Position numbers and translations under genes: made by a program. The notes under the pieces were generated by a model, which was not told the DNA's origin, searched no databases, and saw only the letters and a program-made list of their open reading frames with translations. Shown here piece after piece: positions 7,449 to 9,534 of a stretch of 14,754 nt of DNA. How positions within the stretch are numbered: position 1 is the stretch's first letter; every line of letters starts with the position of its first letter. The stretch lies in the IMG/VR virus record IMGVR_UViG_2617270963_000012; one strand, 5' to 3'. The stretch is from a virus. Its lineage: Duplodnaviria > Heunggongvirae > Uroviricota > Caudoviricetes.

Positions 7449-9445
7449 TGGCTAAAGCATGGAAAGATGTTATCGCCTCTCCACAGTATCAGGCGTTAGC
7501 ACCAGAACAAAAAGCGCAGGCTCAGGAGCAATACTTCAATGAAGTCGTTGCCCCGCAAGCCGGAGAAAATGCAGAGCAGGCCAAGCAAGCTTTCTATGCT
7601 GCCTATCCATTGCCATCTGCGCAGCAAGTGGAGACACAGCAACCAGTAGCACAGCAACAACCACAGCAAAGTGGATTTATGTCTGATCTTGGCGAAGCAG
7701 TAAAAGAGACTGGTCGCGGACTGGTGCAGGCTGGCGTGAACGTGGCAAACATACCCGCATCAGTTGCCGATGCTGTAACAAGCGCGGCGGCTTGGGCTGG
7801 CGGTAAACTCGGCATTGGCGATGGTACATATCAACCAGCGCCACGAGTAACAACGCAGGGATTAGAGCAGGACTTTGGCCTTCAGCAAGGCGCGCTGACT
7901 CCACAAACGACAGAGGGAAGGGTATTTGCTGAAGCATTGCCTTACCTCACTCCTGCTGGCGTTGAGAGAGCGGCAGCACAGGCACCAACACTTGCTGGTC
8001 GAATTGCTCAGGGGGCAACTCGCCTTCTAGCAGAAAACGCAGTTGGATCACTTGCTGCAAATAGTGCGAAAGATGATGCGGAAGCACTCGCCACCGATTT
8101 AGGCGTTGGTGTGCTGGCTGGCGGTGCTATTAACGCTGCCGGACGTGGATTAGGTGCTGCTTATCGTGGCGTTCGTGGTGCTATTGCGCCAGAAGCGCAG
8201 CAGGCTATCAGATTTGCAGAGCGTGAAGGAGTTCCTCTGCACACCACAGACCTGTTACAGCCTACTTCCCGCGTCGGAAAAATGGCGCAAACGACAGCAG
8301 AAAATATCCCCCTGGCTGGCACAAGCGGAATGAGAGCAACGCAACAGGAAGCGAGAAGCCAGTTGGTTCAGAGATTTGCTGATAAATTCGGTGAGTATGA
8401 TCCAGCGGTTGTTATTGACAGCCTTAAAGCGAAAACATCAGGAATTCGTCGTGCCGCCGGTAATCGACTGGAGCAGGTTCAGAATGCTATGGCGGGAGTC
8501 AATATCCAGCCTGCGCGAGCAATTCAGCAGATTGATACTGAGATATCTAATCTGCAGAAGCTTGGTAAGGTAGCTGATAACGAGACAATTTCAAAACTTC
8601 AGTTATATCGTGATGAGCTTGTTCGCAATGCTGGCCCTGATGGTCCGGTAAATCTGGATTTGAAGCAATTAAGCGACCTGCGCAGCCAGTTCAGAATGGA
8701 CGTGAAGGGTGAGCGACCAGTGTTACCAAACCGTTCAGATGCTGCCATTCAGCGCGTTTACAAGGCAATGACTGACGATATCAATGGTGCCATTGGTCAG
8801 AATCTTGGCAACGATACTCTCCGTAAATATCAGCAGGCCAATGCCGTCTATGCTGACGAAGCTGCGAAACTAAAGAATACCAGGCTGAAGAATGTTCTCA
8901 TGAAAGGCGATCTGACGCCGGAAGTTGTCAACAACATGCTATTCAGCAAGAACAAATCGGAAATTAAGACTCTGTATAACTCAGTTGGTCGTGTTGGCAG
9001 GGCGCAAATGCGCAATGGCATCATTGGAAAGGCGATGGAGAAATCAGGTGGTTCCCCTGACCAGTTCCTTCGGCAGCTTAACATCCTGCAAAACCAGACT
9101 GGCATCATATTTAAAGGTCAGGAAGCCGCTTATCTGAAAGGATTGAAAAACTACCTGCAATCCACGCAGCAGGCTGCAAAAGCGGCAGTAACAACACCAA
9201 CAGGGCAGCAAACCATCCCGTTCATTATCGGGTATGGGACGGCAATGAACCCGGCGACAACTGGCGCAGCGGTAAGCTACGGACTTCTTACTCGCGCCTA
9301 TGAGAGCGAGCCATTCAGAAATGCAATGCTCCGAATGGCAAACACCCCACGCGGATCAACAGCGTTTGAGAAAGCCATGCAGCAGGCGCAAAAGGCCATT
9401 AACGCCCTGACTCAAGGTGCCAAGTCTGATGCGTTGTCAGAATAG
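7448..9445 (+). CDS. Ejection protein, P22 gp16-like (665 aa)
   Basis: Last gene of the ejection-protein trio by synteny. RBS GGGGTGA upstream. Large protein with a Q/A-rich N-terminal region. Confidence 0.8.
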   Translation: MAKAWKDVIASPQYQALAPEQKAQAQEQYFNEVVAPQAGENAEQAKQAFYAAYPLPSAQQVETQQPVAQQQPQQSGFMSDLGEAVKETGRGLVQAGVNVANIPASVADAVTSAAAWAGGKLGIGDGTYQPAPRVTTQGLEQDFGLQQGALTPQTTEGRVFAEALPYLTPAGVERAAAQAPTLAGRIAQGATRLLAENAVGSLAANSAKDDAEALATDLGVGVLAGGAINAAGRGLGAAYRGVRGAIAPEAQQAIRFAEREGVPLHTTDLLQPTSRVGKMAQTTAENIPLAGTSGMRATQQEARSQLVQRFADKFGEYDPAVVIDSLKAKTSGIRRAAGNRLEQVQNAMAGVNIQPARAIQQIDTEISNLQKLGKVADNETISKLQLYRDELVRNAGPDGPVNLDLKQLSDLRSQFRMDVKGERPVLPNRSDAAIQRVYKAMTDDINGAIGQNLGNDTLRKYQQANAVYADEAAKLKNTRLKNVLMKGDLTPEVVNNMLFSKNKSEIKTLYNSVGRVGRAQMRNGIIGKAMEKSGGSPDQFLRQLNILQNQTGIIFKGQEAAYLKGLKNYLQSTQQAAKAAVTTPTGQQTIPFIIGYGTAMNPATTGAAVSYGLLTRAYESEPFRNAMLRMANTPRGSTAFEKAMQQAQKAINALTQGAKSDALSE

Positions 9446-9514
9446 CTTCGCAAACACCAGGAACGTGCAAAAACCAAATATGTAGAACGCAATATTCAGC
9501 ATATCTCTTTGCAT
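9437..9514 (-). CDS. Candidate 25-aa hydrophobic mini-protein (MQRDMLNIAFYIFGFCTFLVFAKLF)
   Basis: On the - strand a GGAGGA Shine-Dalgarno (9523-9518) lies 3 nt upstream of an ATG (9514-9512), 12 nt after the mnt-like stop. The ORF encodes a single predicted transmembrane helix and ends 9 nt into the 3' end of the gp16-like gene. Below the ORF-track length cut-off. Confidence 0.3.
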   Translation of the reverse strand: MQRDMLNIAFYIFGFCTFLVFAKLF

Positions 9515-9534
9515 AAATCCTCCGTAACTGATAG

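What the first reader, a model, noticed from the sequence alone, without database searches (positions are those of the whole stretch)
9437..9534. 25-aa hydrophobic mini-ORF with a strong Shine-Dalgarno, downstream of mnt where P22 carries sieA
Twelve nt after the mnt stop, on the same strand, GGAGGA-ttt-ATG opens a 25-codon frame encoding MQRDMLNIAFYIFGFCTFLVFAKLF, essentially one transmembrane helix, that ends 9 nt inside the 3' end of the gp16-like gene. In P22 the interval between gene 16 and mnt holds sieA, an inner-membrane superinfection-exclusion gene. This ORF could be a small membrane peptide co-transcribed with mnt, or the N-terminal stump of a deleted sieA-like gene. Short hydrophobic peptides next to repressors are sometimes toxic or exclusion-related.
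Basis: inference. Interest (0 to 1): 0.45.

Follow-up and report, generated by a model that had tools for sequence, protein, structure and literature searches.

The report
Hidden 25-residue prophage membrane peptide gene
The 25-codon frame is a real, conserved and so far unannotated gene for a tiny membrane peptide of P22-like prophages, and it probably explains a phage-exclusion effect that was published as the work of a "non-coding" antisense RNA (STnc6030 of Salmonella phage BTP1).

Summary
Window 9437..9514 (minus strand) encodes MQRDMLNIAFYIFGFCTFLVFAKLF behind GGAGGAtttATG. The start lies 20 nt after the mnt stop, and the frame ends 9 nt inside gene 16.

It is neither a chance ORF nor a sieA stump.
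- A 23- or 25-codon version is intact in all 172 related loci that reach the site, behind at least eight different upstream neighbours, and always overlaps the stop of Sf6/L-type gene 16.
- In the Salmonella/Citrobacter clade, substitutions are 147 synonymous to 53 non-synonymous (54.5 synonymous expected). Counts by codon position are 44/13/144, and omega is about 0.14.
- No gene caller, protein family library or RNA family library contains it.

The BTP1 orthologue sits inside STnc6030, a highly expressed lysogen transcript. That transcript alone excludes BTP1 but not P22, and it does not affect prophage induction. It was called non-coding only because it holds no ORF longer than 60 aa. The escape SNPs are non-synonymous changes at gp16 residues 583-595. 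This segment aligns with P546, a P22 SieA-escape position.

My best reading (about 0.55) is that the peptide is a minimal, SieA-like inner-membrane factor that blocks gp16-dependent DNA entry. In this window it is probably co-transcribed with mnt.

The parts
9437..9514 (-). 25-codon gene for a single-pass hydrophobic peptide, MQRDMLNIAFYIFGFCTFLVFAKLF. The name 'gene-16-tail peptide' is mine.
   Evidence: Searches give the sequence. The ORF is intact in 172 of 172 related loci. Coding signature: omega about 0.14 in the 23-aa clade (P<1/2000) and about 0.6 in the 25-aa clade (P=0.0085). Substitutions per site at codon positions 1/2/3 are 1.89/0.58/5.84.
9518..9523 (-). Shine-Dalgarno GGAGGA, 3 nt upstream of the ATG.
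   Evidence: GGAGG(A/G)TTTATG is retained in the Citrobacter, Salmonella and BTP1 versions despite unrelated upstream DNA. The SD and ATG positions show almost no changes.
9437..9445 (.). 9-nt tail-to-tail overlap between the peptide gene (Leu-Phe-stop) and the end of gene 16 (Ser-Glu-stop).
   Evidence: The overlap is 12 nt in the 23-aa clade.
9535..9795 (-). mnt homologue (86 aa), the upstream cistron. A longer ORF runs to 9828.
   Evidence: Pfam Arc plus Repressor_Mnt. PGAP annotates the 86-aa form in strain G3/10.
9895..9923 (-). Promoter-like site (CTGACA-17-AATGAT) upstream of mnt. This is a candidate Pmnt that would also drive the peptide gene.
   Evidence: Consensus scan only; the number of sites found was no higher than in shuffled sequence. 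This is an inference.
7448..9445 (+). Gene 16 homologue (DNA ejection protein, 665 aa, Sf6 type), the proposed target of the peptide.
   Evidence: Sf6 gene 13, 'similar to P22 gene 16'; alignment.
9224..9262 (+). gp16 residues 593-605 (IIGYGTAMNPATT). This segment is homologous to the BTP1 segment where all the mutations that escape STnc6030 exclusion map, and it contains the position aligned with P22 SieA-escape residue P546.
9145..9169 (-). Terminator-like hairpin plus T-run inside gene 16, about 270 nt 3' of the peptide stop. It lies close to the position equivalent to the mapped 3' end of BTP1 STnc6030.
   Evidence: Consensus scan. The positional comparison with STnc6030 uses. This is weak evidence.

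Best explanation
The ORF is a real, translated gene for a 25-residue, single-helix inner-membrane peptide. It belongs to an unannotated family (23 or 25 aa; N-terminus M-x-R-D-x-L-N-x-A-h-h-h-[F/C]-G). In P22-like prophages of Escherichia, Shigella, Salmonella, Citrobacter, Klebsiella and Pseudescherichia, this family always lies tail-to-tail with, and overlapping, the stop codon of Sf6/L-type gene 16.

In this window it is most likely the second cistron of the lysogen-expressed mnt transcript.

Its most likely job is superinfection exclusion. From the inner membrane it would interfere with the C-terminal region of the incoming phage's gp16 ejection protein. DNA of phages carrying the same gp16 type would then fail to enter, while the resident prophage could still be induced normally. 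This is functionally what P22 SieA does, achieved with a non-homologous peptide about one-seventh its size.

**Shown here:**
- The ORF and its Shine-Dalgarno sequence exist.
- The ORF is conserved and under purifying selection at the amino-acid level.
- It is strictly linked to this gene 16 type.
- Its orthologue lies inside BTP1 STnc6030.
- The BTP1 escape sites coincide with a P22 SieA-escape site.

**Taken from papers:**
- STnc6030 is highly expressed in lysogens.
- It is sufficient for exclusion of BTP1.
- The SieA-escape positions in P22.

**Inferred:**
- The peptide, not the RNA, is the effector.
- It acts on gp16 in the membrane.
- The E. coli 25-aa version does the same as the BTP1 version.
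For: **1. It is a coding gene.**
- It is intact in 172 of 172 loci. In 115 of 116 further evaluable pattern hits it has exactly 23 or 25 codons and is convergent with a long gp16-like ORF.
- The 23-aa clade has 147 synonymous and 53 non-synonymous changes, against 54.5 +/- 6 synonymous expected. No simulation out of 2000 reached the observed count.
- In that clade, changes by codon position are 44/13/144, and omega is about 0.14.
- The 25-aa clade has 31 synonymous and 53 non-synonymous changes (P=0.0085).
- Third codon positions change faster (5.84 per site) than the flanking non-coding DNA (3.16), and second positions change much more slowly (0.58).

**2. The SD and ATG travel with the ORF.**
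- They persist behind at least eight upstream contexts, including mnt, the tailspike leader, and two lipoprotein genes.
- In Sf101 the mosaic junction falls between the mnt stop and the SD.

**3. The two clades share peptide sequence, not nucleotide sequence.** They share 10 of 14 N-terminal residues, yet blastn cannot align the ORF DNA.

**4. The BTP1 orthologue lies inside STnc6030.**
- It occupies nt 407-478 of the 786-nt transcript. It is the only ORF there with a strong SD, and the cloned fragment contains it.
- PMC7067206 reports four things. The transcript is highly expressed in lysogens, and on a plasmid it gives total exclusion of BTP1 but not P22. Over-expression does not change the titre of induced phage. 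All four escape SNPs are non-synonymous changes in gp16.
- The normal induction titre is hard to reconcile with antisense destruction of late mRNA.

**5. Escape sites coincide.** The escape SNPs fall at gp16 residues 583-595. P22 SieA-escape residue P546 aligns with BTP1 V589 inside that segment, and G532 aligns 7 residues before it (SieA data from PMC10883804).

**6. SieA and the peptide do not co-occur.** SieA is absent from all 172 loci. The 41 phage records with SieA and the 38 with the peptide do not overlap.

**7. No structured RNA is evident.** There is no RNA structure signal (z -0.44 and -0.62) and no Rfam match.
Against: - There is no direct evidence of translation or membrane location for any family member.
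- The published interpretation of the BTP1 phenotype is an antisense RNA. The escape SNPs do lie within the part of the transcript that is complementary to gene 16, so that model is not formally excluded.
[quoted passage not shown] Four non-synonymous SNPs out of four is not significant on its own (about 0.3 by chance).
- In the E. coli/Shigella clade, which includes this window, constraint is weaker (omega about 0.6).
- The gp16 escape segment shows no positive selection (omega 0.08-0.10).
- The exclusivity with SieA could be simple linkage to the gp16 type.
- Co-transcription with mnt rests only on spacing and the absence of a terminator-like site.
- This prophage has a nonsense codon in its tailspike, so it may be decaying.
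Confidence: 0.55

Rival explanations
1. The effector is an antisense RNA, as published for STnc6030. A lysogen transcript that reads into the 3' end of gene 16 pairs with late mRNA of the incoming phage. The ORF is translated, but it either has an unrelated membrane role or mainly keeps the transcript protected from Rho so that it extends into gene 16.
For: PMC7067206 supports this in three ways. The transcript overlaps about 320 nt of gene 16. The escape SNPs lie in that overlap. P22, which has no nucleotide similarity there, is not excluded. In the window, a transcript from mnt through the ORF would also run antisense into gene 16.
Against: - Over-expression does not reduce the yield of infectious phage from the induced prophage, although its late mRNA is fully complementary.
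- Single SNPs abolishing the effect of a roughly 320-nt perfect duplex would be unusual.
- All the SNPs change gp16 residues, and they lie at the site where SieA-escape changes map.
- The model does not explain amino-acid-level purifying selection on the ORF (omega 0.14).
- It does not explain why the SD and ORF are kept when the whole 5' half of the transcript is replaced.
- There is no conserved RNA structure.
Confidence: 0.2
2. The ORF encodes a small membrane peptide with a different role: a type I toxin-like or addiction peptide, or a modulator of a host membrane protein. It would be kept by the prophage for reasons unrelated to phage entry.
For: Its size and hydrophobicity resemble Ibs, ShoB or TisB-type toxins and regulators of the MgrB/PmrR type (my own knowledge). 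The peptide is one hydrophobic helix. The convergent late transcript could serve as a natural antisense partner.
Against: - There is no match to any Rfam toxin or antitoxin family, nor to any Pfam, NCBIfam, PHROGs or PADLOC family.
- The SD is strong and unmasked, and sits directly behind a constitutively expressed repressor gene. This is unlike the tightly silenced type I toxins.
- Constitutive plasmid expression of the BTP1 transcript was tolerated and gave a phage-specific phenotype.
- This idea does not explain the strict linkage to one gp16 type.
Confidence: 0.13
3. Translation matters but the peptide does not. The ORF would be a coupling or leader device, for example one that sets the stability of the mnt mRNA or the outcome of convergent transcription with the late operon.
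For: The ORF lies 20 nt behind mnt and ends inside the convergent gene 16.
Against: The amino-acid sequence is constrained (omega about 0.14, with second codon positions nearly frozen). The ORF is equally conserved where no mnt precedes it, as in Sf6, BTP1, Citrobacter and Klebsiella phiKp_30.
Confidence: 0.04
4. The ORF is a fortuitous frame in a deletion scar, or the stump of a lost sieA gene.
For: P22 carries sieA in this interval. 25-codon ORFs are common by chance.
Against: - It is intact in 172 of 172 loci at a fixed length, with a clear coding signature.
- It has no SieA motif or similarity.
- It is conserved across genera whose gp16 tails are only about 75% identical.
Confidence: 0.02

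Closest known systems
P22 SieA (superinfection exclusion A; types A-C of Leavitt et al. 2024, PMC10883804)
   Same: - It occupies the same genomic slot, between gene 16 and gene 9 and convergent with gene 16, in P22-like prophages.
- It is expressed from the prophage and is a hydrophobic membrane protein.
- The exclusion phenotype linked to the BTP1 orthologue is overcome by changes in the same short C-terminal segment of gp16.
   Different: - There is no homology. The peptide has 23-25 aa and one helix, against 162-200 aa and 3-4 helices for SieA.
- It lacks the FxRYPxEAxxFNK motif.
- SieA excludes phages carrying P22, L, Sf6 or CUS-3 ejection proteins. The BTP1 factor does not exclude P22.
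- SieA escape needs combined gp16 and gp20 changes. BTP1 escape phages each carried one SNP in the only region that was sequenced.
STnc6030, the 'antisense RNA' superinfection-exclusion factor of Salmonella prophage BTP1 (Owen et al. 2020, PMC7067206)
   Same: The BTP1 orthologue of this ORF lies inside STnc6030, at nt 407-478 of 786. It has the same position relative to gene 16 and the same SD.
   Different: - STnc6030 starts inside the tailspike gene. In the window, mnt lies between the tailspike gene and the ORF, so the 5' half of the transcript is not equivalent.
- Nucleotide identity is only 67-68%, and only where the opposite strand codes for protein.
- STnc6030 was classed as non-coding. 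I propose that it is an mRNA.
Other small prophage or phage inner-membrane proteins that block DNA entry (T4 Imm, HK97 gp15); from my own knowledge, not tested here
   Same: The proposed mode of action is the same: a membrane protein made by the resident phage that stops genome entry of related phages.
   Different: These proteins are unrelated in sequence and several times larger. They target different entry machineries.
Type I toxins and other peptides under 30 aa in enterobacteria (Ibs, ShoB, TisB, DinQ; PmrR, KdpF); from my own knowledge
   Same: The size is similar, the peptide is a single hydrophobic helix, and gene callers miss it.
   Different: - There is no family match.
- The gene is not silenced by a structured leader.
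- The phenotype of the orthologous transcript is phage-specific, and no toxicity was reported.
HK620 HkcB and an unnamed 42-aa ORF in a Yersinia aleksiciae prophage
   Same: Both are small proteins with an N-terminal hydrophobic helix, encoded immediately convergent with the end of gene 16.
   Different: They show no sequence similarity to the peptide. They are longer (109 and 42 aa), have coiled-coil-like tails, and are associated with other gp16 types.

Membership tests
SieA (P22-type superinfection exclusion protein) | Homologous protein of about 160-200 aa with 3-4 predicted transmembrane helices | tested here: not met
   The peptide has 25 aa and one hydrophobic stretch. It shows no meaningful similarity to P22 SieA.
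SieA (P22-type superinfection exclusion protein) | Conserved cytoplasmic motif FxRYPxEAxxFNK (PMC10883804) | tested here: not met
   The motif is absent from the peptide and from all six reading frames of the 172 loci that carry the ORF.
SieA (P22-type superinfection exclusion protein) | Encoded between genes 16 and 9 of a P22-like prophage, on the strand opposite to gene 16 | tested here: met
SieA (P22-type superinfection exclusion protein) | Inner-membrane protein that blocks DNA injection, with escape through the C-terminal regions of gp16/gp20 | not testable with these tools
   The evidence is indirect. The BTP1 transcript that carries the orthologue excludes BTP1, and the escape changes fall at gp16 residues 583-595, which align with P22 P546.
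STnc6030-type prophage transcript (BTP1) | Contains the conserved 23/25-codon ORF with its SD, ending in the 3' end of gene 16 | tested here: met
STnc6030-type prophage transcript (BTP1) | Transcript that starts inside the tailspike gene and runs antisense across the tailspike 5' end | tested here: not met
   In the window, mnt (9535..9795) separates the ORF from the tailspike gene. The likely promoter is the mnt promoter.
STnc6030-type prophage transcript (BTP1) | High expression in lysogens and sufficiency for exclusion | not testable with these tools
   This is known only for BTP1.
Type I toxin-antitoxin | Small hydrophobic peptide | tested here: met
Type I toxin-antitoxin | Membership of a described toxin mRNA or antitoxin sRNA family | tested here: not met
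   No Rfam match at E<=1 across 8900..10300. No Pfam or NCBIfam match.
Type I toxin-antitoxin | Toxicity on expression | not testable with these tools
   Constitutive expression of the BTP1 transcript was tolerated.
New family proposed here: gene-16-tail peptide (23/25 aa) | N-terminal M-x-[RK]-D-x-[LMI]-N-x-A, then a hydrophobic helix with [F/C]-G at residues 13-14 | tested here: met
   The window peptide is the commonest allele of the 25-aa clade.
New family proposed here: gene-16-tail peptide (23/25 aa) | Stop codon 9-12 nt inside the convergent Sf6/L-type gene 16, with its own SD 3-5 nt before the ATG | tested here: met

The most novel reading that the evidence does not exclude
The 23-25-residue peptide, not the RNA, is the effector of the STnc6030 exclusion phenotype. 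A textbook example of antisense-RNA-mediated superinfection exclusion would then be an mRNA for the smallest known exclusion protein. This would be a single transmembrane helix that disables the gp16 part of the P22-type DNA-delivery conduit in a gp16-type-specific way. About 6% of complete E. coli genomes, and many Salmonella, Shigella, Citrobacter and Klebsiella P22-like (pro)phages, would carry it unannotated.
Probability: 0.5. Interest if true: 0.8.

Novelty: new variant of a known kind. Interest (0 to 1): 0.68.

Why it matters
- **A missing gene in model phages.** If the peptide is the effector, P22-like phages that 'lack sieA' (Sf6, L, ST64T, ST104, BTP1 and many prophages) do have an entry-exclusion gene. 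It has been invisible because it is shorter than gene-caller cut-offs.
- **Re-assignment of STnc6030.** This cited case of asRNA-mediated exclusion would become a case of a small protein. It would resolve the authors' own puzzle of why the resident prophage is not affected.
- **A minimal probe for gp16.** A 23-residue helix that blocks the gp16 conduit would be a simple tool for studying how ejection proteins cross the inner membrane.
- **Easy to test.** The decisive experiment is a start-codon mutant of an existing plasmid.
- **Value regardless of function.** Even if the exclusion role is wrong, this is a well-supported new small-protein family. It is found in 316 of 5426 complete E. coli genomes.

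Tried and rejected
- **sieA remnant.** I compared the peptide with P22 SieA. The last SieA helix, 'SIAIFIFSVFIKIVF', loosely resembles 'NIAFYIFGFCTFLVF'. This is ordinary similarity between hydrophobic helices, and the SieA motif is absent, so I rejected the idea.
- **Known families.** Pfam, PHROGs, NCBIfam and PADLOC gave nothing for three family members at E<=10.
- **Rfam.** No match at E<=1.
- **Structured RNA.** Both strands of 9420..9545 fold no better than shuffled sequence.
- **Protein databases.**
  - The search for homologous proteins refuses queries under 40 aa.
  - A 42-aa N-terminally extended natural variant found no homologue.
  - Five exact peptides are absent from the 15-billion-protein collection.
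- **Arms-race signal in gp16.**
  - The escape-homologous segment is locally more variable and correlates with peptide type.
  - Its omega is only 0.08-0.10, against 0.06 for the whole gp16 tail, so there is no positive selection. Linkage confounds the correlation, so I do not use it as evidence.
- **Own promoter.**
  - A TATAAT lies about 25-30 nt upstream of the ATG in loci where the tailspike gene directly follows, but it has no acceptable -35 and the scan does not call it.
  - The ungapped upstream comparison does not show clear conservation, so this is left open.
- **Other ORFs in STnc6030.** None has an SD. The 56-aa GTG frame is a shadow of the tailspike head-binding domain, so I did not pursue it.
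- **Literature.** I found no prior description of the peptide, and no coding re-interpretation of STnc6030. One preprint on the P22 translocation channel could not be opened.
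Full report
**1. The observation**

On the minus strand, ATG lies at 9514-9512 and TGA at 9439-9437. The 25 codons encode MQRDMLNIAFYIFGFCTFLVFAKLF.

GGAGGA lies at 9523-9518, three bases before the ATG. The ATG is 20 nt after the TAA of the upstream gene. The frame ends 9 nt inside the convergent 665-codon ORF 7448..9445.

The surrounding genes form the late operon of a P22-like (Lederbergvirus) prophage:
- coat protein, gp10-like protein, gp7, gp20 and gp16;
- a true Mnt homologue (Pfam Arc plus Repressor_Mnt; most likely 9535..9795, 86 aa);
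- the tailspike gene and a gtr cluster.

The nearest sequenced relatives are phages IME10 and Sf6 and prophages of E. coli.

A 25-codon ORF is not remarkable in itself. 27 ORFs of at least 20 aa overlap 9000..10100.

**2. The ORF is conserved and travels with gene 16, not with mnt**

Sf6 has no mnt, yet it carries the same ORF (MQRDLLNIAFYIVGFCTFLVFAKLF) behind unrelated upstream DNA. Sf101 has the same mnt but a different gene 16 tail, and it lacks the ORF. The homology break falls between the mnt stop and the Shine-Dalgarno sequence.

The 115-nt region is present in 316 of 5426 complete E. coli genomes. Many of those matches begin one base before the ATG. PGAP annotates nothing there.

To sample without bias, I anchored searches on the C-terminal 199 residues of gp16, not on the ORF.
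- 80 IMG/VR loci of the E. coli/Shigella type carry a 25-codon ORF.
- 80 loci of a type whose gp16 tail is about 75% identical carry a 23-codon version. Its consensus is M[E/D/N]RD[L/W]LNFA[F/L]L[I/L][F/C]G..VG..LF[A/T].
- Genome hits in Escherichia sp., Pseudescherichia and Citrobacter carry it as well.

In total, 172 of the 172 loci that reach the site have the ORF intact: 87 with 25 codons and 85 with 23. Every completed hit has 23 or 25 codons, and 115 of 116 evaluable hits are convergent with a long gp16-like ORF.

The upstream neighbour varies among at least eight contexts:
- mnt;
- the tailspike leader;
- a 161-173-aa lipoprotein gene on the same strand;
- a 99-aa lipoprotein gene on the other strand;
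- several different tailspike types;
- an insertion.

The SD and ATG are kept across these contexts. The 23-aa version is also present, unannotated, in phages L, ST64T, ST104, BTP1, g341c, MG40, SPN9CC and Klebsiella phiKp_30.

**3. It is protein-coding**

I inferred substitutions on neighbour-joining trees and compared them with 2000 random placements that kept the transition/transversion class.

| Clade | Changes | Synonymous | Non-synonymous | Synonymous expected | P | Omega |
|---|---|---|---|---|---|---|
| 23-aa | 201 | 147 | 53 | 54.5 +/- 6 | <1/2000 | about 0.14 |
| 25-aa | 84 | 31 | 53 | 21.5 | 0.0085 | about 0.6 |

One further change in the 23-aa clade was scored as a stop; I take it to be an artefact of scoring multi-base codon changes one base at a time. 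Changes by codon position in that clade are 44/13/144.

In the 23-aa clade, changes per site at codon positions 1/2/3 are 1.89/0.58/5.84. The 45 nt upstream show 3.16 per site, and the SD and ATG are almost invariant. For comparison, the gp16 tail in the same loci has omega 0.06.

The two clades share 10 of their first 14 residues, but blastn cannot align the ORF DNA. Window and BTP1 are 67-68% identical only where the opposite strand codes for tailspike or gp16. The constraint therefore acts on the peptide.

Neither strand folds better than shuffled sequence (z -0.44 and -0.62), and Rfam finds nothing.

The peptide is one hydrophobic helix behind a short polar head. The 23-aa form contains a G-x-x-x-G motif.

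No Pfam, PHROGs, NCBIfam or PADLOC family matches it. The exact peptides are absent from a 15-billion-protein collection.

**4. What it probably does**

*The published BTP1 experiments.* Owen et al. 2020 (PMC7067206) described STnc6030 in the Salmonella prophage BTP1. It is a 786-nt transcript on the minus strand (D23580 coordinates 403942..404727). It runs antisense to the tailspike 5' end and the gp16 3' end.
- It is among the most highly expressed BTP1 transcripts in lysogens: 28-178 expression units, against 3-16 for gene 16 in the same table.
- It was called non-coding because it contains no ORF longer than 60 aa.
- Expressed alone from a plasmid, it gave total immunity to BTP1 but not to P22.
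- Over-expression did not change the titre of phage released by the resident prophage. The authors flagged this as unexplained.
- Five escape phages carried four different SNPs within 404041-404078. All four are non-synonymous changes in gp16.

*Where the ORF sits in that transcript.* I mapped the published coordinates and cloning primers onto BTP1.
- The 23-codon ORF MERDLLNFVFLIFGLVVGKLLFA occupies nt 407-478 of STnc6030.
- It is the only ORF there with a strong SD (GGAGGgtttATG).
- It lies wholly inside the cloned fragment.
- The escape SNPs lie 172-209 nt beyond its stop, at gp16 residues 583-595 (ILGIGTVTNPALV).

*Comparison with SieA escape.* Leavitt et al. [quoted passage not shown] Escape needs gp16 G532W and/or P546S together with gp20 changes.

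In a gp16 alignment anchored by the conserved TGQ and GYGL..R.YES.P motifs, P22 P546 aligns with BTP1 V589, inside the escape cluster. G532 aligns with G576, seven residues before the cluster. The equivalent window segment is gp16 residues 593-605, nt 9224..9262.

*How the two models fit.* An entry block by a membrane protein explains all of the following:
- normal prophage induction;
- escape by single amino-acid changes;
- the SieA-like escape site;
- specificity for one gp16 type;
- the strict genetic linkage of the ORF to that gp16 type.

The antisense model explains only the specificity and the location of the SNPs within the overlap.

SieA and the peptide never co-occur in my samples. 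No SieA motif appears in the 172 loci, and the 41 phage records with SieA share no record with the 38 that carry the peptide. This could be linkage alone.

No paper that I could search proposes a coding role. A 2025 review still lists STnc6030 as an asRNA.

**5. Expression in this window**

There is no terminator-like site between mnt and the ORF. A promoter-like site lies upstream of mnt at 9923..9895, and a terminator-like hairpin lies on the minus strand at 9169..9155 inside gene 16. That hairpin is near the position equivalent to the mapped 3' end of STnc6030.

Mnt is a lysogen-expressed repressor in P22 (established knowledge). Co-transcription would therefore give prophage expression of the peptide. 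This step is inferred.

**6. Verdict**

| Claim | Probability |
|---|---|
| The ORF is a real small-protein gene | about 0.9 |
| It is a superinfection-exclusion peptide acting on gp16-dependent DNA entry | about 0.55 |
| The RNA is the effector | about 0.2 |
| The peptide has another membrane role | about 0.13 |
| Translation matters but the peptide sequence does not | about 0.04 |
| Chance ORF or sieA stump | about 0.02 |

It is not a member of the SieA family, because the defining features I could test are not met. It appears to work like SieA.

Caveats:
- There is no direct evidence of translation.
- Constraint is weaker in the E. coli clade that includes this window.
- The gp16 target segment shows no positive selection.
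- Only part of each escape-phage genome was sequenced.

A start-codon mutant of the existing STnc6030 plasmid would settle the question.

Noticed in passing
window 9986-9988: The tailspike gene has an in-frame ochre codon. AAA (Lys24 of the head-binding domain) is TAA here, whereas E. coli G3/10 and phage IME10 have AAA. The gene is therefore split into 9915..9988 and 10067..11536, and the prophage is probably defective for tailspike.
   Followed up: partly
window 9535-10066: mnt is present, but arc and ant are not. mnt faces the tailspike gene directly, so the Mnt-controlled promoter (Pant in P22) would read straight into gene 9. What Mnt regulates here is unclear.
   Followed up: no
window 9920-10180 (minus strand); Sf6 L003 1751-2074: An 86-107-codon ORF runs antisense to the conserved tailspike head-binding domain, on the same strand as the peptide gene. 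It is broken up in BTP1 (56-codon GTG frame). It is probably a shadow ORF of a highly conserved coding region.
   Followed up: partly
L006 2495-2980 (E. coli XH993) and about 22 IMG/VR loci, e.g. L029, L066: A 161-173-aa predicted lipoprotein gene (MKRSLLIIPLLLVGC...) lies immediately upstream of, and on the same strand as, the peptide gene. Together they look like a two-gene cassette in the exclusion slot, so the lipoprotein is a candidate second exclusion or moron function. In these loci the first 8 codons of the peptide gene are a diverged allele (MQRDTINL...) with several synonymous differences.
   Followed up: no
L093 (Yersinia aleksiciae), just after the gene 16 stop; HK620 L088 2352-2681 (hkcB): Other gp16 types carry different small proteins with an N-terminal hydrophobic helix, convergent with the end of gene 16. 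One is a 42-aa ORF with a strong SD in Yersinia; the other is the 109-aa HkcB in HK620. The gene 16 tail seems to be a recurrent site for small membrane proteins.
   Followed up: no
L087 (P22 NC_002371) and L002 (Sf101 NC_027398): The RefSeq records name the mnt product 'partition protein ATPase' and P22 gene 16 'head morphogenesis'. These are evident annotation errors. PGAP calls the gp16 homologue variously 'hypothetical protein', 'lytic transglycosylase domain-containing protein' or 'P22-gp16 family phage DNA ejection protein'.
   Followed up: no
L001 (phage IME10, NC_019501 31812-35611): The record has only 27 annotated features, and none across the gene 16 - mnt - tailspike region, although all three genes and the peptide ORF (A22E variant) are intact.
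   Followed up: no
L126-type loci and phage L (L178 2129-2422): In the phage L/ST104 arrangement, a 97-99-aa predicted lipoprotein ('orf62 in ST104') is encoded on the opposite strand between mnt and the peptide gene.
   Followed up: no
L107 and L295: In two IMG/VR contigs the gp16 reading frame ends abnormally (likely a frameshift or assembly error), while the peptide ORF next to it is intact.
   Followed up: no
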